Origin: Pelagibacteraceae bacterium AG-426-E17
GTDB taxonomy: Bacteria; Pseudomonadota; Alphaproteobacteria; Pelagibacterales; Pelagibacteraceae
Length of the DNA stretch: 64,000 bases
Direction: 5' to 3'
Assembly (NCBI GenBank): GCA_003210095.1
Contig: QCNP01000003.1
Span: 3,503-67,502 of the forward strand
Part shown: piece after piece, positions 14,167 through 21,888 of the stretch
How positions within the stretch are numbered: the first letter of the stretch is position 1
How the letters are laid out: every line of letters starts with the position of its first letter
Program-made: the position numbers and the translations under genes
Notes under the pieces: generated by a model
Seen by the model: only the letters and a program-made list of their open reading frames with translations
Told to the model about the DNA's origin: nothing
Databases searched by the model: none

Positions 14167-15120
14167 TCATATTTTAATATTTTTTAAAGCATTATTTTTG
14201 AAAATATTAGCTTCTCTTATATATCTTCTAACCATCTGACTTGTTTTGTGACCAGTCATTGCCATTATACTACGTTCATCAGCACCAGACTCTGCAGCGA
14301 CAGTTGCAAAACCTGATCTTAAACTATGACCTGCAAAATTTTTATTTTCTATACCTGCTAAATTTAAATATTCTTTCATTAATAAAACTACTGATTGATC
14401 AGTTAATCTTTTTTCAGTTAATGATAAACCTTTTGAAAATCTTCTAAAAATTGGTCCAGATTTAATTTTAGAAATTTCTAACCATTTTTTAAGATTAACA
14501 ATTGGACAATAATTTTCATTAGTGAAGTAGGGTAGTCCTTTAATCATCCCTTCACCAAATTGATCAGTTTTTGATCTTTTAATAGTGATTTTGAGACCCT
14601 CAGGTACAAATTCTAAATCTTCATGATCAATTGAAATTAGCTCAGTTCGTCTAAAACCTCCTCCAAAGCCCACTAAGATAATTGATTTGTCTCTATACTT
14701 CTTTATGTCTTCAATTTTTTGTTCATTTATTGTATTAATTATTGATTTTAAATGATTGATTAATATAGGTTTTTTACCTTTCTGAATGCTTCCTTTTACC
14801 CTTTTTATTCCCATTAAATTTTCAACAATAATTGGGTGTTTTGTATCTAAATAATGTCCTTTAAGTTTATGAACCATGCATATAGACACTAATCTTCTCC
14901 TTAAAGTACTGATTTTTGAATTTTTAGAAAGATGGGTTAGGTATAATGAGACTATTTTTGGCTCTGATGGCAGGGAATTTAAACCATGTTTAGCGCAAAA
15001 AGCTCCAAAATCTTTAAAGTCTGATTTATATGCTCTTAAAGTGTTATTTGCTTTTGAGCTTTTGAGATTATTTAGTGTTGCCTCGTAAAGCAATTTTAGG
15101 TCTGTTGTAAGTTCATTCAT
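14167..15120 (-). CDS. Cre-like tyrosine site-specific recombinase
   Basis: Intact catalytic set R (GFRRTEL), K (RSKTDQ), HxxR (HSLR), H (GHKT), Y (RRYI); SAM-like N-terminus (NTLRAYKSD); no obvious arm-binding domain. Confidence 0.92.
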   Translation of the reverse strand: MNELTTDLKLLYEATLNNLKSSKANNTLRAYKSDFKDFGAFCAKHGLNSLPSEPKIVSLYLTHLSKNSKISTLRRRLVSICMVHKLKGHYLDTKHPIIVENLMGIKRVKGSIQKGKKPILINHLKSIINTINEQKIEDIKKYRDKSIILVGFGGGFRRTELISIDHEDLEFVPEGLKITIKRSKTDQFGEGMIKGLPYFTNENYCPIVNLKKWLEISKIKSGPIFRRFSKGLSLTEKRLTDQSVVLLMKEYLNLAGIENKNFAGHSLRSGFATVAAESGADERSIMAMTGHKTSQMVRRYIREANIFKNNALKNIKI

Positions 15121-17947: not shown

Positions 17948-20059
17948 TTAAGACCAAATGACCTGTTTTTTTAATTTAAAATCAAATGATTTGGACAAAA
18001 TATATTCTGATACTATGTCAGAATTAAAATATTTAAGATATTTTATTTTTCCTTGTCGTGCTATTTGCTTCCCCTTTTTTTTATCTTTTTTATATTTATT
18101 TAGTTTATAACTTAGATCAGATAAATTTTTGTAAAAAATAAGTTCATCACTTGTAAAAAAATCACTCAAATAGGTGTTTTTATCAATAAATGTTAAAAGT
18201 CCATTACCAACTAATTGAACTATACGATCACTGCTGTAATATTTTATTGGTTTGCCTCTACTTAAATTTAAACCCATATAAGAATTTGAAATTTTTTTAA
18301 TAAATTGATCTGCCCATATTGGTTGAACATTATTCATTCCATAAACATCAAACTTTATATTTTTATTAAGTTTTATAAGTTTATTAATAAAGTTTTCTCT
18401 ATCATCACCTTTTCCACTTTTTAATTGACCTCTATGAACACCATGGCTCATTGCAAAAAAAACATCATAAGCGCAATTTTTGTTATAATTATTAAGAACC
18501 TCAAATGATTTATCTGCAGGATTTGGCATAAAAAATGAATTTGGTATTTTAATCTGTAGTGCTGAAGGATCAGTGGTTAAAAAAGTATTATCTAGTAATT
18601 TAACTTTATCTAATATTCTTCTAGTATTATTTTCATGGTCAGGTCCATACTTTGATAAAGGATCTAAAAACCATTGAGAAAACTTTGTTGAAGAATTGAT
18701 CTCCTTCATGATCTGCAATGTGTCATTTTTAACTCTGTCAGCGTGTCCTAAAATAACAATATCTGGTTTAAAATTTTTAAAAGTATCAACAATTTTTTTT
18801 TGTAAAGTAATTCTTCCAGACATATCTTTTATACTTTTATTATTGTGGATTATATCTCTATCACTAATTGATAAAACGTTATGGCCATTTCTTATAAAAC
18901 CATTATTTAATCTTCTACCTGTATTATAATGTAATCTTCCATCAAATCTTTCGTTAAAATTTGTAATATGCATTATCTTAAAAGATCTTTCTTTTTTTAT
19001 TATTAATGTATTATTAACAATAAATGCACTCCTAATTTTATCAATAATATTAGAAATATAATTATGGTCAAATTTAAAATTTTTATAATTTAAAATTTGA
19101 AATTTTTTTAATTTATTATGATTCAAAATTAAATCTTCAATATGTTCATAAAGATCATTTGTGTTTAAGGATTTAAGGATGATAGCATTTTTTGCAGTTT
19201 CAGGTAGACCTCCCCTATTACTTATAATTACTGCACATCCTCTACTAGCAGCCTCTAAACTAGTTCTACCAAAAGGCTCTTCCCATCTAGAGCATACTAC
19301 TGATATACTAACTTTATTTAATATATTTAGCACATCTTCGTGTTTAGTATAACCTCTAACATTTAAATTTTTATGTTCAAAATTTAATTTTTCTCGAGGC
19401 TCTTCTCCTATTACAATACCTTTCCAGTCACTATGTTTATTTAAAATTTTAATTATAGTTTTTCCAAAAATATCATATCCTTTAGCACTGTTTAGTTTTC
19501 CAATAAAAGAAATCAACTTTTTTTTATTTTTAAAATTGATTTTGACTCTGCCGGTTGACTGATAACAAATTGATGTTTTTTGTTTCAGTAAATTTTTGTT
19601 ATCTATACCAATAAAAAATCTTTCCTGAGACCATTCACTATTAAACAATATTTTATCAATTTTATTTAATAGATAAATTCTATCATTAGTAGATTTAGAG
19701 CCATTCATAGAGAGAGGATCGTTGTGAAAATATAAAATCAATTTTTTATTTTGTATTTTTTCCAAGTATTTTATGTAATTAGGTCTATTATGTATTTCTA
19801 TAATATCTGAATTTATATTTTTTTCTTTTTTTAAAAAATTAGCAACATAGTTTTTACTATTGCTTTGAATCAAAGATTTTTTTAATTCTATGTTAATGTA
19901 ATTTTTTAAAAAGGGTTTTTGTTTTTGCATATTACCGAAAACATAGGAGTTTTCAAAAAATTTACTATTTTCTATAGTATGTTTAACAAATAGAGATACT
20001 GCACCAGCATTATTTGGAGAAAAATTTTCTTTATAAGGCAGTAAAACTGATATTTTCAT
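17948..20059 (-). CDS. Two-domain glycosyltransferase (GT4 domain plus a second GT-B/CgeB-like domain)
   Basis: EEPFGRTSLEAASRG in the N-terminal half; LNLSRG...YSSDRIVQLVGNG in the C-terminal half. Confidence 0.8.
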   Translation of the reverse strand: MKISVLLPYKENFSPNNAGAVSLFVKHTIENSKFFENSYVFGNMQKQKPFLKNYINIELKKSLIQSNSKNYVANFLKKEKNINSDIIEIHNRPNYIKYLEKIQNKKLILYFHNDPLSMNGSKSTNDRIYLLNKIDKILFNSEWSQERFFIGIDNKNLLKQKTSICYQSTGRVKINFKNKKKLISFIGKLNSAKGYDIFGKTIIKILNKHSDWKGIVIGEEPREKLNFEHKNLNVRGYTKHEDVLNILNKVSISVVCSRWEEPFGRTSLEAASRGCAVIISNRGGLPETAKNAIILKSLNTNDLYEHIEDLILNHNKLKKFQILNYKNFKFDHNYISNIIDKIRSAFIVNNTLIIKKERSFKIMHITNFNERFDGRLHYNTGRRLNNGFIRNGHNVLSISDRDIIHNNKSIKDMSGRITLQKKIVDTFKNFKPDIVILGHADRVKNDTLQIMKEINSSTKFSQWFLDPLSKYGPDHENNTRRILDKVKLLDNTFLTTDPSALQIKIPNSFFMPNPADKSFEVLNNYNKNCAYDVFFAMSHGVHRGQLKSGKGDDRENFINKLIKLNKNIKFDVYGMNNVQPIWADQFIKKISNSYMGLNLSRGKPIKYYSSDRIVQLVGNGLLTFIDKNTYLSDFFTSDELIFYKNLSDLSYKLNKYKKDKKKGKQIARQGKIKYLKYFNSDIVSEYILSKSFDFKLKKQVIWS

Positions 20060-20318
20060 TTTTTAAAAATCTCTTTTTTATTTCATTTCTTAATTTAAAA
20101 TTTTTTTTTAATTTATATTCCTCTTTTAAGGCAATACTTTTATTTTTGTATTTTTTTGAATAGGCCAATTTCCAATTTTTACCTTTAGTAAATTTAGCAC
20201 CTTTTGAAACATTATGTAACAATAGTCTTTTTTTTAAGTTATTTGTATAACCAACGTATGATACTACTTGTGCTGCCTTTTTATTTATATTTACGATTAA
20301 ATATACAAAATAAGTCAT
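20031..20318 (-). CDS. GIY-YIG nuclease family protein (UPF0213/YhbQ-like)
   Basis: YFVYLI...SYVGYTNNLKKRLLLHN..KGAKFTKG...ALKEEYKLKK. Confidence 0.88.
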   Translation of the reverse strand: MTYFVYLIVNINKKAAQVVSYVGYTNNLKKRLLLHNVSKGAKFTKGKNWKLAYSKKYKNKSIALKEEYKLKKNFKLRNEIKKRFLKNENISFTAL

Positions 20319-20320
20319 AT

Positions 20321-20356
20321 TGGCGGTCCCTAGGGGAATCGAACCCCTCTTTCATG
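20321..20356 (-). repeat. 36-bp copy of the tRNA-Glu 3' end (att site)
   Basis: TGGCGGTCCCTAGGGGAATCGAACCCCTCTTTCATG is identical to 21814-21849. Confidence 0.95.
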
Positions 20357-20416
20357 AATCATGAACATTGTATTTTATAACTTTTTTCGTCTTCAAAATC
20401 AAAAAATTAGAATCAA

Positions 20417-20436
20417 GTGTGCCCAGAGTGTGCCCA
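20417..20436 (+). repeat. Tandem GTGTGCCCA x2 (11-bp period), putative integrase arm-type sites
   Basis: GTGTGCCCA-GA-GTGTGCCCA, 60 bp inside the left att. Confidence 0.7.
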
Positions 20437-20439
20437 CGA

Positions 20440-21108
20440 TTAATCACTTGCAGCCACATAAATTATAAAACCTATTGCAATTATTGGAAGAGCTGCACTT
20501 GAGTCTAGAATAATATAATTTAGTATCTTGTTTAATGCCCACCAACCAGTATCAAACCTACCATAATCACCTAATGTAAAAATCGTGACTCCCCAATCAC
20601 CTAAGGATATAGTTTTCCAAATACCAATTTTTAGCCAAACATAAATTGCATAAACAATATGTCCAGCACCTATAAGCATTATTCCTTGACCAATTAATCT
20701 GAAAAAAAGATTAATCCCATCTTCAATTGGTTGCTTAGCCTTACCACGGTTTTTGTAGAGTTTAGTGTTTGGAAAATAAAAATAGACATAAGACACTATT
20801 ATTAAAGAAATAGGTATTGTCCAAAATGAAATATTTTCCCCAGTTGGAAACTCTGAAAAAATAATAAAGTATCCAAACATCCAAATTAAAAAAAAACCAG
20901 CTATCAAATTAAAAATTCCCCAAAGAATATTTCCTAATTTGCTAGTTGCTAGCTTATTTTTTTTTGAAGGGTCTTTTAAACATTCGACTGCAAAAATTAA
21001 ACAAAGCAGTCCTAATGATTGCATAAATATCACCGTTATAAATAAAAACATAATTATATCATTGTGTCTGTCATTACTTACAGTAAGTTTTTGAATTTTT
21101 GAATGCAA
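20440..21108 (-). CDS. Hypothetical membrane protein (islet cargo)
   Basis: 222-aa ORF with about 5 hydrophobic segments; no family recognised; start uncertain. Confidence 0.65.
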   Translation of the reverse strand: MHSKIQKLTVSNDRHNDIIMFLFITVIFMQSLGLLCLIFAVECLKDPSKKNKLATSKLGNILWGIFNLIAGFFLIWMFGYFIIFSEFPTGENISFWTIPISLIIVSYVYFYFPNTKLYKNRGKAKQPIEDGINLFFRLIGQGIMLIGAGHIVYAIYVWLKIGIWKTISLGDWGVTIFTLGDYGRFDTGWWALNKILNYIILDSSAALPIIAIGFIIYVAASD

Positions 21109-21460
21109 CCGTTTCTTCTTTAAAGTTTACTAAAAGATCATTACCAGTAACTTGTGATTTTAATTTAGCAAAATTACTATCTACAAACATTACATCAAAA
21201 TCTAAAATTCTTATCTCTGGTAGTCTAAATTTTCGACCTTGCTGTTTCATTTTGTTGTTTTGTTTTTTTACGTATTTACTATTATACTCAACAACCATAC
21301 TTGCAGTTTCTTTATCTGTATCAATTGTATAATACCATTTATCAAACATACTCTTATCAAAACCATCACCTTTATGACATTTTTTTAATTTAATAATTTT
21401 TGAATACGAGGGACTAATAATTAAACATATTAAAATCGTGATCCCTAAAAGTTTTTTCAT
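21074..21460 (-). CDS. Hypothetical exported protein (islet cargo)
   Basis: 128 aa; N-terminal signal peptide MKKLLGITILICLIISPSYS; two Cys in the mature part. Confidence 0.65.
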   Translation of the reverse strand: MKKLLGITILICLIISPSYSKIIKLKKCHKGDGFDKSMFDKWYYTIDTDKETASMVVEYNSKYVKKQNNKMKQQGRKFRLPEIRILDFDVMFVDSNFAKLKSQVTGNDLLVNFKEETVAFKNSKTYCK

Positions 21461-21723
21461 CTTAATTTTCTGCCTTTAAATCTAAAATAATTAAATGCAC
21501 CTATTAATATCATTCCAATGATAACCCAGTGATCTTTGGTGTATCCATAAATAACTTGCTCTAAAGCCATTGCAATTATGAAAATTACAATGTTTATAAA
21601 TAAAGTGAAGAAAGCACCTGAAAAACATTTAGAAATTTTAACCTTTGATTTTTTCAAAATATTAAAATCATAAATTGAAACACCAAATAATGTAATTAGC
21701 ATAAGAAATCCAGCAGCTTCCAT
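21457..21723 (-). CDS. Hypothetical small membrane protein (islet cargo)
   Basis: 88 aa, about 3 TM segments, basic C-terminus; overlaps the next gene by 4 nt. Confidence 0.6.
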   Translation of the reverse strand: MEAAGFLMLITLFGVSIYDFNILKKSKVKISKCFSGAFFTLFINIVIFIIAMALEQVIYGYTKDHWVIIGMILIGAFNYFRFKGRKLR

Positions 21724-21738
21724 ATTTTAATTATATCA

Positions 21739-21758
21739 GTGTGCCCACAGTGTGCCCA
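21739..21758 (+). repeat. Tandem GTGTGCCCA x2 (11-bp period), putative integrase arm-type sites
   Basis: GTGTGCCCA-CA-GTGTGCCCA, 55 bp inside the right att; same orientation as 20417-20436. Confidence 0.7.
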
Positions 21759-21813
21759 GAGAGAAATTTTCGGCATAATTATTTAAATAAGTGTTAATGT
21801 ATTTAGCAACTAG

Positions 21814-21888
21814 TGGCGGTCCCTAGGGGAATCGAACCCCTCTTTCATGGATGAAAACCATGTGTCCTAACCGATAGACGAAGGGACC
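21814..21888 (-). tRNA. tRNA-Glu (TTC)
   Basis: GGTCCCT...AGGGACC-GCCA acceptor; CATGG-TTTTCAT-CCATG anticodon arm; GGTTCGATTCC T-arm. Confidence 0.97.

What the first reader, a model, noticed from the sequence alone, without database searches (positions are those of the whole stretch)
20321..21849. Non-autonomous 1.5-kb tRNA-Glu islet with att sites but no integrase
Seen: an exact 36-bp duplication of the tRNA-Glu 3' end (20321-20356 = 21814-21849) brackets three unrecognised genes and nothing else. The repeats are undecayed, which suggests a recent or still-mobile element. Known: tyrosine integrases of phages and islands, including pelagiphages, target tRNA genes and restore the 3' end. Inference: this is a minimal satellite-like cassette that relies on an integrase supplied in trans, giving SAR11 a swappable gene slot. 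It could also be an island whose integrase was deleted.
Basis: partly seen in the sequence, partly recalled or inferred. Interest (0 to 1): 0.72.

Follow-up and report, generated by a model that had tools for sequence, protein, structure and literature searches.

The report
Integrase-less gene cassette at SAR11 tRNA-Glu
A 1.5-kb block of three membrane or exported protein genes was spliced into the tRNA-Glu gene of a Pelagibacter (SAR11) genome as a cargo-only cassette that keeps both docking sites of a small circular integrase-carrying element found in seawater, which shows how this "mobile-element-poor" bacterium can swap genes at one slot.

Summary
An exact 36-bp copy of the tRNA-Glu 3' end (20321-20356 = 21814-21849) brackets three minus-strand ORFs, and the only integrase-family gene in the 1.15-Mb genome is a conserved Cre/Xer-like one.

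New points:
- **Arm sites.** Just inside each end sits a pair of GTGTGCCCA 9-mers at 11-bp spacing. They occur nowhere else in the genome.
- **Candidate helper.** Circular or concatemeric 6.3-6.9-kb elements from marine metagenomes (integrase plus primase-helicase) carry the same two pairs. One (L078) flanks the identical 36-bp core with them, with the same 55-nt spacing on the integrase side.
- **Intermediate.** One SAR11-like contig holds a tRNA-Glu islet whose integrase is truncated to 92 aa.
- **Same ends, different cargo.** At least seven other Pelagibacteraceae genomes or contigs carry the same arms at tRNA-Glu with different, mosaic cargo, including a candidate phage-defence gene.
- **Conservation.** The arms are 82-100% identical where the host flanks are 58-73%.
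- **Empty site.** A related genus has the flanking GIY-YIG gene abutting an intact, single tRNA-Glu.

This is a non-autonomous, CIME-like cassette of a satellite-like integrase family. The general kind is known; the arm sites and the helper appear to be new detail.

The parts
21814..21888 (-). Intact tRNA-Glu(UUC). Its 3' 36 nt (21814-21849) form the attL core.
   Evidence: ARAGORN. It is 100% identical to the tRNA-Glu of sibling loci.
21759..21813 (.). 55-nt spacer between the tRNA 3' end and the tRNA-proximal arm repeats ('B arm').
   Evidence: The 55-nt length is the same in the circular integrase element L078. It is 82-93% identical in sibling islets, against 58-73% for host flanks.
21739..21758 (+). 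B-arm repeats: GTGTGCCCA-CA-GTGTGCCCA, two 9-mers at 11-bp period. Putative integrase arm-type sites.
   Evidence: only two such pairs in the genome. The same pair sits 13 nt upstream of the integrase ATG in L074, L078 and L073.
21730..21758 (-). Promoter-like site: -35 TGGGCA lies inside the B-arm repeat, and an extended -10 TG-TATAAT ends 6 nt before the ATG of the first cargo ORF.
   Evidence: Best consensus match in the region, 10 of 12. The first ORF's ATG holds the same position in all sibling islets, and the integrase ATG holds it in the autonomous elements. This is a consensus match only.
21457..21723 (-). Cargo ORF1, 88 aa, hydrophobic (about three predicted membrane helices by eye). 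It occupies the position that the integrase gene holds in the autonomous elements.
21074..21460 (-). Cargo ORF2, 128 aa, with an N-terminal signal peptide MKKLLGITIL...
   Evidence: The 21-27 nt encoding the signal peptide (21440-21466) recur nearly identically in cassette ORFs of many other islets.
20440..21051 (-). Cargo ORF3, 203 aa, a multi-helix membrane protein of unknown function.
   Evidence: It has 30 homologues of 56-77% identity in marine metagenomes and SAR11 single-cell genomes. In four of the five contigs I could read, the homologue sits in a tRNA-Thr islet. The AlphaFold model is all-helical but of low confidence, pLDDT 52.6.
20417..20436 (+). A-arm repeats: GTGTGCCCA-GA-GTGTGCCCA, the distal arm.
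   Evidence: Similarity to sibling islets stops abruptly right after this motif.
20357..20416 (.). 60-nt spacer between the displaced core and the A-arm repeats.
   Evidence: 88-93% identical in L070, L082 and L084. It is 88% identical within the arm-core-arm junction of L096.
20321..20356 (-). Displaced copy of the tRNA-Glu 3' end (attR core). It marks the original host junction.
   Evidence: The host GIY-YIG start codon abuts it exactly as it abuts the intact tRNA in G013.
20031..20318 (-). Host GIY-YIG gene, the chromosomal flank. It is not part of the islet.
   Evidence: Pfam PF01541, E 6e-13. Synteny with L032, L070, L082 and L084.

Best explanation
The islet (20357-21813) is a cargo-only integrative cassette. 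It was inserted into the 3' end of tRNA-Glu by site-specific recombination, catalysed by a roughly 331-aa tyrosine integrase that this genome does not encode.

The integrase belongs to small (6.3-6.9 kb) circular or concatemer-forming elements that carry an integrase and a primase-helicase. These are satellite-like and resemble VEIMEs. Their attP is [GTGTGCCCA x2] - 95 to 110 nt - [tRNA-Glu 3' core] - 55 nt - [GTGTGCCCA x2] - 13 nt - ATG of the integrase.

The islet keeps the whole cis-acting set: a 36-bp core at both ends, both arm pairs, and a promoter-like site overlapping the tRNA-proximal arm that now points at cargo where the autonomous elements have the integrase. It has no integration or replication gene.

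It therefore sits silently in the chromosome. It can be excised, exchanged or stacked only when a helper element of that integrase class enters the cell. At the population level this makes the tRNA-Glu site a slot that holds different 1-3-gene sets of envelope or defence genes.

Shown: the insertion, the shared core and arms, the existence of circular helpers, and the diversity and mosaicism of cargo within conserved arms. Inferred: that the 9-mers bind the integrase N-terminal domain, and that this copy is still mobilisable.
For: - **Insertion.** In G013 the GIY-YIG start abuts a single intact tRNA-Glu. In the window it abuts the 36-bp fragment.
- **Arms.** There are four exact GTGTGCCCA copies, as two pairs at 11-bp period just inside each end, and none elsewhere in the genome.
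- **Helper, circular form.** L078 (Tara contig) has a 127-bp terminal overlap equal to its k-mer size, so it assembles as a 6.9-kb circle. It carries an integrase, a DUF5906 primase-helicase, and an attP with the identical 36-bp core between the same arm pairs, with a 55-nt spacer on the integrase side as in the window. L079 is a rotated copy from another sample.
- **Helper, concatemer.** L074 is a head-to-tail concatemer of a 6.33-kb unit with the same layout.
- **Integrase family.** It has more than 357 cluster representatives in marine metagenomes, many on 6-7-kb contigs.
- **Co-variation.** Relatives with other targets have other tandem 11-bp repeats at the same place, 13-17 nt upstream of the integrase ATG: GTGTGATCA in L075 and GTGCGTCCA in L081. 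Their N-terminal domains differ as well.
- **Intermediate.** L069 has an islet at tRNA-Glu with the integrase cut to 92 aa plus cargo.
- **Siblings.** L070, L071, L072, L082 (Ca. Pelagibacter communis AAA795-F16), L083 and L084 have the same arms with different cargo, and similarity breaks right at the arm motifs.
- **Mosaic cargo.** One identical 196-aa first gene is followed by at least six different second genes across ten contigs.
- **Conservation.** Arms are 82-100% identical, against 58-73% for host flanks.
- **Junction.** L096 has an arm-core-arm junction next to a cargo-only cassette.
- **No resident enzyme.** The genome has one PF00589 gene, which is conserved in 10 of the 11 other family genomes I checked and is only distantly related to the helper integrase.
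Against:
- No cargo-only circle was found in IMG/VR.
- The distal-arm spacer is 60 nt in the cargo-only islets but 95-110 nt in the integrase-bearing elements. The cargo-only arms also form their own sequence subfamily. So the exact helper of this subfamily has not been seen.
- The tRNA-proximal arm motif was part of my search pattern, so its perfect conservation among siblings is partly ascertainment.
- Arm binding by the integrase is inferred from position and co-variation only.
- Cargo turnover could come from homologous recombination and need no integrase.
Confidence: 0.7

Rival explanations
1. Fossil scar. An integrase-bearing element integrated once in an ancestor and lost its integrase and replication genes in place. 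What remains is immobile. The different cargo seen in other strains arose by ordinary homologous recombination between SAR11 cells, with the conserved tRNA, arms and signal-peptide-coding segments acting as anchors and no integrase involved.
For: L069 shows integrase truncation in place. Cargo is mosaic at the level of single genes, with 21-48-nt near-identical signal-peptide segments that could serve as recombination anchors. L070's distal core has three mismatches and some distal arms have 1-2 mismatches, which is decay. The cargo-only arms form a subfamily distinct from the integrase-bearing ones.
Against: In the window, both cores and all four 9-mers are exact. Arms are far more conserved than host flanks, 82-100% against 58-73%. 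Similarity between siblings ends exactly at the arm motifs on both sides. The same first gene appears both directly at the tRNA and behind another att junction (L096). That requires a further site-specific insertion or a circle. Cargo homologues also sit in tRNA-Thr islets with related arms, in the opposite orientation to the core.
Confidence: 0.25
2. The genome's own single tyrosine recombinase (14167-15120, Cre/Xer-like, 5 kb from the islet) inserts and removes the cassettes, in the way a chromosomal integron integrase does.
For: It is the only PF00589 gene in the genome, and it lies close to tRNA-Glu here and in G009.
Against: It is present as a roughly 325-aa frame in 10 of the 11 other family genomes checked, whether or not they hold islets, which fits a housekeeping dimer-resolution enzyme. 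It has a SAM-like core-binding N-terminus and no arm-binding domain. It shares only the catalytic HxxR...GH...RY patch with the element integrase. The arm repeats sit at the start of a different integrase gene in the autonomous elements.
Confidence: 0.03
3. Assembly artefact: a mis-join or collapsed repeat at the tRNA.
For: The genome is a draft of five contigs.
Against: The same fragment-arm-cargo-arm-tRNA layout, with the same flanking genes, occurs in independent assemblies: L070, L082 and L084.
Confidence: 0.01

Closest known systems
[quoted passage not shown]
   Same: It keeps intact attL and attR at a tRNA 3' end and has no integrase or transfer genes. It can be stacked with incoming elements at the same site. 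A decaying intermediate is seen in L069.
   Different: The parent or helper is a 6-7-kb integrase plus primase-helicase element with no conjugation genes, not a conjugative element. Cargo-only copies form their own arm subfamily and carry highly diverse, mosaic cargo, so they look like a propagating class more than one-off decay products.
[quoted passage not shown]
   Same: The organism group and the signature are the same: a tRNA or tmRNA-linked island, a partial tRNA repeat, and no integrase.
   Different: In the passages I searched, that paper reports the repeats only. It names no arm-type sites, no att architecture and no helper. Here all three are defined for the tRNA-Glu slot.
VEIMEs: virion-encapsidated integrative mobile elements packaged as concatemers, many assigned to Pelagibacter (PMC9618062)
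   Same: The candidate helpers (L074 concatemer, L078 circle) match the description: small, with a tyrosine integrase and a primase/helicase, no capsid genes, concatemeric. About 20% of VEIMEs lack an integrase and were suggested to borrow one.
   Different: The window's islet has no replication or packaging genes and is 1.5 kb. Whether it is ever packaged is unknown. I could not test whether L074 or L078 belong to the published VEIME set.
Tycheposons and their remnants in Prochlorococcus islands (bioRxiv 10.1101/2020.12.28.424599); tycheposon-like regions in Pelagibacter (PMC11876622)
   Same: tRNA-targeted tyrosine-recombinase elements, partial-tRNA flanks, repeated integration that pushes older elements inwards, and degraded remnants that build islands.
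   Different: The host and the integrase family differ, though the relationship was not tested. Here the cargo-only units keep complete arm sites, which those passages do not describe.
Integron gene cassettes (analogy only)
   Same: Small units of promoter-dependent cargo plus one recombination site, moved by a recombinase encoded elsewhere, and stackable in arrays.
   Different: There is no attC hairpin, no IntI and no attI. The site is a lambda-type attP with arm repeats and a tRNA core, and the promoter-like site travels with the cassette.

Membership tests
tRNA-targeting tyrosine-integrase integrative element (lambda/P4-type att architecture) | Direct repeat identical to the 3' part of the target tRNA, with the tRNA gene left intact | tested here: met
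   36/36 identity; ARAGORN finds an intact tRNA-Glu.
tRNA-targeting tyrosine-integrase integrative element (lambda/P4-type att architecture) | Arm-type repeats flanking the core on both sides | tested here: met
   GTGTGCCCA x2 lies 55 nt and 60 nt from the cores, and the same repeats are in the attP of L074 and L078. Protein binding was not tested.
tRNA-targeting tyrosine-integrase integrative element (lambda/P4-type att architecture) | Integrase gene inside the element | tested here: not met
   No Pfam or PHROG integrase hit among the three ORFs, and no tblastn remnant.
tRNA-targeting tyrosine-integrase integrative element (lambda/P4-type att architecture) | Empty target site exists in relatives | tested here: met
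   G013 (L032): GIY-YIG directly follows the single tRNA-Glu.
CIME (cis-mobilizable element) | Has retained attL and attR | tested here: met
   Both cores are exact, both arm pairs are exact, and the spacers are conserved.
CIME (cis-mobilizable element) | Has lost integration and transfer genes | tested here: met
   L069 is an intermediate.
CIME (cis-mobilizable element) | Derives from, and is mobilised with, an ICE or IME (conjugative system) | tested here: not met
   Related autonomous elements encode an integrase plus a primase-helicase. No relaxase or T4SS hit was found among their ORFs.
CIME (cis-mobilizable element) | Accretion with an incoming element at the same att site | tested here: inconclusive
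   L096 shows arm-core-arm between two cassettes, but the 1.1-kb contig cannot tell a tandem array from a circle.
VEIME / phage satellite | Own integrase and replication (primase/helicase) genes | tested here: not met
   Absent from the islet. Present in L074 and L078.
VEIME / phage satellite | Found as concatemers inside virus particles | not testable with these tools
L074, the helper type, is a concatemer.
Tycheposon | Tycheposon-type tyrosine recombinase and other hallmark genes | not tested
   The islet has no recombinase. The helper integrase was not placed in a tree with tycheposon integrases, whose sequences were not on hand.
Integron cassette | attC site recombined by IntI at attI | tested here: not met
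   The recombination site is a tRNA core with arm repeats. Every tyrosine recombinase seen here matches only the generic Phage_integrase model (PF00589), and none lies beside a cassette array.

The most novel reading that the evidence does not exclude
SAR11 runs a two-component, tRNA- and tmRNA-anchored gene-cassette economy. One component is a large population of integrase-less cassettes of 0.6-2 kb. Each carries a roughly 190-bp portable att module (arm - tRNA core - arm) whose arm also supplies the promoter for the cargo. The other component is a diversified family of roughly 331-aa arm-binding integrases borne on transient 6-7-kb satellite-like circles. These integrases insert, stack, excise and exchange the cassettes in trans. 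Arm-repeat sequence and integrase N-terminal domain co-vary, which gives specificity classes. Arrays of up to six cassettes at tmRNA and tRNA-Thr, and the mosaic cargo at tRNA-Glu, would be the footprint of this system. It would be a main route by which the most abundant marine bacterium turns over surface and defence genes without resident mobile elements.
Probability: 0.35. Interest if true: 0.8.

Novelty: new variant of a known kind. Interest (0 to 1): 0.55.

Why it matters
SAR11 is the most abundant bacterial group in the ocean. It is usually described as nearly free of mobile elements, yet its populations carry very large flexible gene pools concentrated in islands next to tRNA genes.

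This locus gives a concrete and testable mechanism for one such slot:
- defined cis sites: a 36-bp core and two pairs of GTGTGCCCA repeats with fixed spacing;
- a candidate trans-acting enzyme that can be synthesised from metagenomic sequence;
- a set of natural alleles of the slot with different cargo, including a candidate anti-phage gene.

It would let excision and integration be assayed in E. coli without needing SAR11 genetics. It also gives search patterns for counting cassettes and helpers in metagenomes and viromes.

Tried and rejected

- The look-up of sequencing runs, the genome search after and the fetch from genomes after one search were closed.
- No circle or empty-site reads could be sought, and same-genus tRNA-Glu loci could not be fetched.

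**Searches that found nothing useful**
- Exact 26-nt tRNA-Glu core in IMG/VR. The only hit was a 40%-GC phage contig with a tRNA cluster (L065), which is not an attP.
- Cargo-only attP junction and cargo-only arm patterns in IMG/VR: no hits.
- IMG/VR relatives of the 448-aa P4-type integrase from the tRNA-Thr element of G087: none. Its arms are of a different type (TGTAGTGAT), so it is not the helper here.
- Literature search for the 9-mer itself returned only unrelated primer sequences.

**Cargo function**
- Pfam, PHROGs, PADLOC and a PDB profile search gave nothing for the window's three proteins.
- The AlphaFold model of the 203-aa protein had pLDDT 52.6, so I did not run a fold search on it.

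**Readings considered and rejected**
- The resident Cre/Xer-like recombinase as the enzyme.
- The 88-aa ORF as an integrase remnant. It shows no similarity.
- The 9-mers as chance. They occur only at the two islet ends in 1.15 Mb.
Full report
**1. Observation**

The 36-mer TGGCGGTCCCTAGGGGAATCGAACCCCTCTTTCATG occurs at 20321-20356 and 21814-21849. It occurs nowhere else in the window or in the 1.15-Mb, five-contig genome (G000). None of 100 shuffles produced a copy. ARAGORN finds tRNA-Glu(UUC) at 21814-21888 on the minus strand, so the repeat is the tRNA's last 36 nt, from the 3' strand of the anticodon stem to CCA.

Between the copies lie three minus-strand ORFs of 88, 128 and 203 aa. None has a Pfam, PHROG or PADLOC hit, and none resembles an integrase.

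**2. Anatomy beyond the repeat**

Just inside each end there is a pair of exact 9-mers, GTGTGCCCA, at an 11-bp period.
- One pair is at 21739-21758, 55 nt from the tRNA 3' end. I call this the B arm.
- The other is at 20417-20436, 60 nt from the displaced fragment. I call this the A arm.

These four copies are the only ones in the genome. The earlier first-stage note on this same stretch also saw them.

The best promoter-like match in the region, 10 of 12 with an extended -10, lies on the minus strand. Its -35 is inside the B-arm repeat and its TATAAT ends 6 nt before the ATG of the first ORF. This is a consensus match only.

**3. It is an insertion**

To the left of the fragment, the start codon of a GIY-YIG gene (20031-20318) lies 2 nt from the fragment. 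In G013, a genome of another genus of the same family, the orthologous GIY-YIG start lies about 6 nt from the 3' end of a single, intact tRNA-Glu, with nothing in between. So the fragment plus GIY-YIG is the original host junction, and 20357-21813 was spliced into the tRNA 3' end.

Of 201 family genomes scanned, only G000 and two others had two copies of the tRNA-Glu 3' end. One of those two had them on different contigs and the other in inverted orientation.

**4. The same slot in other Pelagibacteraceae**

A metagenome scan and a species-genome scan for B arm plus tRNA-Glu returned nine loci. The three genome hits are all Pelagibacteraceae: Ca. Pelagibacter communis SCGC AAA795-F16, AG-435-I03 and AG-892-L18.

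- L070, L082 and L084 are syntenic with the window. They read GIY-YIG, fragment, A arm, cargo, B arm, tRNA-Glu.
- Their cargo differs from the window's: three other genes in L070, one 147-aa exported protein in L082, and three genes in L084.
- Alignment shows that similarity to the window runs from the core through the arm repeats and stops abruptly right after them, on both sides.
- Arms and spacers are 82-100% identical to the window's. The flanking GIY-YIG and recJ regions are 58-73%.
- The B-arm motif was in my search pattern, so its perfect conservation is partly ascertainment. The A arm and both spacers were not in the pattern.

The cargo is mosaic.
- L070 shares one gene at 98% with L072 and another at 98% with L084.
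- That second gene is a T5orf172/MUG113 protein. L070's copy matches the PADLOC candidate defence family PDC-S57 at E 1e-64.
- In its exact 196-aa form, as in L084, this gene is followed by at least six different second genes across ten contigs.

The window's 203-aa protein has homologues at 56-77% identity. In four of the five contigs I could read (L066, L067, L068, L086), the homologue sits in an islet next to tRNA-Thr, bounded by related 11-bp-period repeats. In L066, where I worked out the orientation, the arm-plus-cargo module is inverted relative to the tRNA core.

**5. The missing enzyme exists elsewhere, with the same att site**

- **L074** (11.2 kb, 35% GC) is a head-to-tail concatemer of a 6.33-kb unit. 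It encodes a 331-aa tyrosine integrase (PF00589, E 2e-20; PHROG 1, E 9e-50), a 702-aa DUF5906 primase-helicase and small ORFs. Upstream of the integrase ATG it has GTGTGCCCA x2, then 55 nt, then a 24-25-nt match to the tRNA-Glu 3' end, then about 110 nt, then GTGTGCCCA x2. No tRNA gene is present. This is an attP.
- **L078** (a Tara Oceans contig, 7062 bp) has a 127-bp exact terminal overlap equal to its assembly k-mer, so it assembles as a 6.9-kb circle. **L079**, from another sample, is a rotated copy. Its integrase is 72% identical to L074's. Its attP holds exactly the window's 36-bp core between the two arm pairs, with 55 nt on the integrase side, as in the window, and 95 nt on the other side.
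- **L073** has a 72%-identical integrase, the B arm and a 38-nt core.
- **L069**, a SAR11-like contig, has an islet at tRNA-Glu in which this integrase is truncated to its first 92 aa and is followed by a 365-aa cargo gene.

The integrase family is large. It has more than 357 cluster representatives at E <= 1e-10, many on 6-7-kb contigs.

Relatives with other targets carry other tandem 11-bp repeats at the same position, 13-17 nt upstream of the integrase ATG.
- L075 (52% identity) is integrated at a tRNA-Met in a 32%-GC chromosome and has GTGTGATCA-type repeats.
- L081 has GTGCGTCCA-type repeats.
- Their N-terminal 30 residues differ at the positions aligned with WSVRIC.

Exactly the same GTGTGCCCA pair also lies about 50 nt downstream of tRNA-like 3' ends in unrelated high-GC viral contigs. 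One of these, L049, has a 327-aa integrase that starts MATLRKRR, like the family here. I read the repeats as arm-type integrase sites. This rests on position and co-variation, not on a binding test.

**6. No resident enzyme**

G000 has one PF00589 gene, at window 14167-15120. A roughly 325-aa counterpart is present in 10 of the 11 other family genomes I checked, whether or not they have islets. It has a SAM-like N-terminus and shares only the catalytic patch with the element integrase. It is most simply a housekeeping Xer/Cre-like recombinase. I did not search for serine recombinases.

**7. Family context**

Near-matches to the tandem motif occur in 11 other genomes out of 400 from the family. 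Several of them lie a few to a few dozen nt from a tRNA or tmRNA 3' end or fragment.

- At tmRNA there are arrays of four to six exact 24-nt fragments. In the array I examined closely (L057), three of the four distal fragments are preceded by a triplet of 9-mers about 60-70 nt away. L058 and L061 hold similar triplets.
- At tRNA-Thr of G087 there are three stacked elements: two cargo-only ones of 1.2 and 1.4 kb, and one of 10.7 kb with a P4-type integrase and its own arm type.

[quoted passage not shown] Pelagibacter-associated satellites (VEIMEs) and tycheposon-like regions are also described (PMC9618062 and PMC11876622). In the passages I searched, I found no description of the arm repeats or of a helper for cargo-only cassettes.

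**8. Mechanism proposed**

A cassette circle carrying arm-core-arm recombined with the tRNA-Glu 3' end through an L078-class integrase present in the cell at the time. This rebuilt the tRNA and displaced its old 3' end. That step is shown up to the identity of the enzyme.

The cassette has no enzyme, so it stays until a helper of the same arm class enters. It can then be excised, replaced, or pushed inwards by a new insertion. This step is inferred.

L096 supports ongoing traffic. It shows A arm, core, B arm, and then the PDC-S57-like gene, which elsewhere sits directly at the tRNA. The gene upstream of that junction is a trypsin-like protease tail. This is either a free circle or a second insertion in front of an older cassette.

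The B arm places a promoter-like site in front of whatever gene follows. In the helpers that gene is the integrase. In the cassettes it is cargo.

The window's cargo is two membrane proteins and one exported protein of unknown function. By analogy with sibling cargo, I guess a surface or phage-interaction role, but nothing tests this.

**9. Rivals**

The main rival is a fossil scar whose cargo diversity comes from homologous recombination. It is favoured by L069, by the mosaicism at conserved signal-peptide-coding segments, and by slight decay in some siblings.

It is disfavoured by four points:
- the exact cores and arms here;
- the sharp similarity breaks at the arm motifs;
- the excess conservation of arms over host flanks;
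- the L096 junction.

I put it at 0.25. The host recombinase and an assembly artefact are unlikely, as set out in the Rival explanations section.

**10. Limits**

As a result there is no read-level test of excision and no look at same-genus empty sites.

The helper found differs from the cargo-only subfamily in its A-arm spacing (95-110 nt against 60 nt) and in its arm flanks. The exact partner of this subfamily is therefore still unseen.

**11. Verdict**

In kind it is a CIME-like, integrase-less cassette in a tRNA-anchored additive island, which is known. The defined arm sites, the portable promoter position, the identified circular helper family and the documented allelic series at one slot are, as far as I could find, new detail. 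Earlier notes of this scan on other SAR11 genomes describe the same pattern at other tRNAs. I treated them as leads only.

Noticed in passing
G000 contig C1:397210-397265 (outside the window): An exact copy of about 56 nt of the 3' part of tRNA-Val lies 256 kb from the tRNA-Val gene (C1:141249-141323) and is followed by a glycosyltransferase-like region. It could be the far end of a very large island or a rearrangement.
   Followed up: partly
window 21440-21466, and cassette ORFs in L036, L054, L055, L068, L071, L082, L084, L096: Many unrelated cassette ORFs start with the same signal peptide, MKKLLGIVVL, conserved at the nucleotide level (21-48 nt at 86-100%). These segments could act as short homology anchors for shuffling genes between cassettes.
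   Followed up: partly
L065 14415-14489 (IMG/VR contig, 40% GC): A phage contig with a tRNA-Arg/Glu/Asp cluster carries a tRNA-Glu identical over all 75 nt to this Pelagibacter tRNA-Glu.
   Followed up: no
L057 (G148), L058 (G260), L061 (G326): Arrays of four to six exact 24-nt tmRNA 3' fragments, 0.6-2.9 kb apart. In L057, three of the four distal fragments are preceded by three tandem 9-mers (GTGAGTCCG / TTGAGTCCG type) about 60-70 nt away. No integrase was found on the contigs searched.
   Followed up: partly
L046, L047, L048, L049 (high-GC IMG/VR contigs): The exact pair GTGTGCCCA-NN-GTGTGCCCA also lies next to tRNA or tRNA-like 3' ends and integrase genes in unrelated high-GC phage contigs. 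The arm motif is therefore shared far beyond SAR11.
   Followed up: partly
window 14167-15120: This is the only tyrosine recombinase gene of the genome. It is Cre/Xer-like, lacks an arm-binding domain, and is conserved as a roughly 325-aa frame in 10 of the 11 other family genomes checked. It is a likely single-recombinase dimer-resolution enzyme.
   Followed up: partly
L090 1168-1290: A strain whose tRNA-Glu has the ...CTCGAAAG anticodon-stem variant carries the same first cargo gene, but its arm repeats have changed to TGGGCGCCC/TGGGCGCAC. This is either drift or a different specificity class.
   Followed up: no
L070 1620-2168 and L084 840-1430: Sibling cassettes at the same slot carry a T5orf172/MUG113 protein. 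L070's copy matches the PADLOC candidate defence family PDC-S57 at E 1e-64. The exact 196-aa protein of L084 occurs on contigs in 37 blocks of the metagenome collection.
   Followed up: partly
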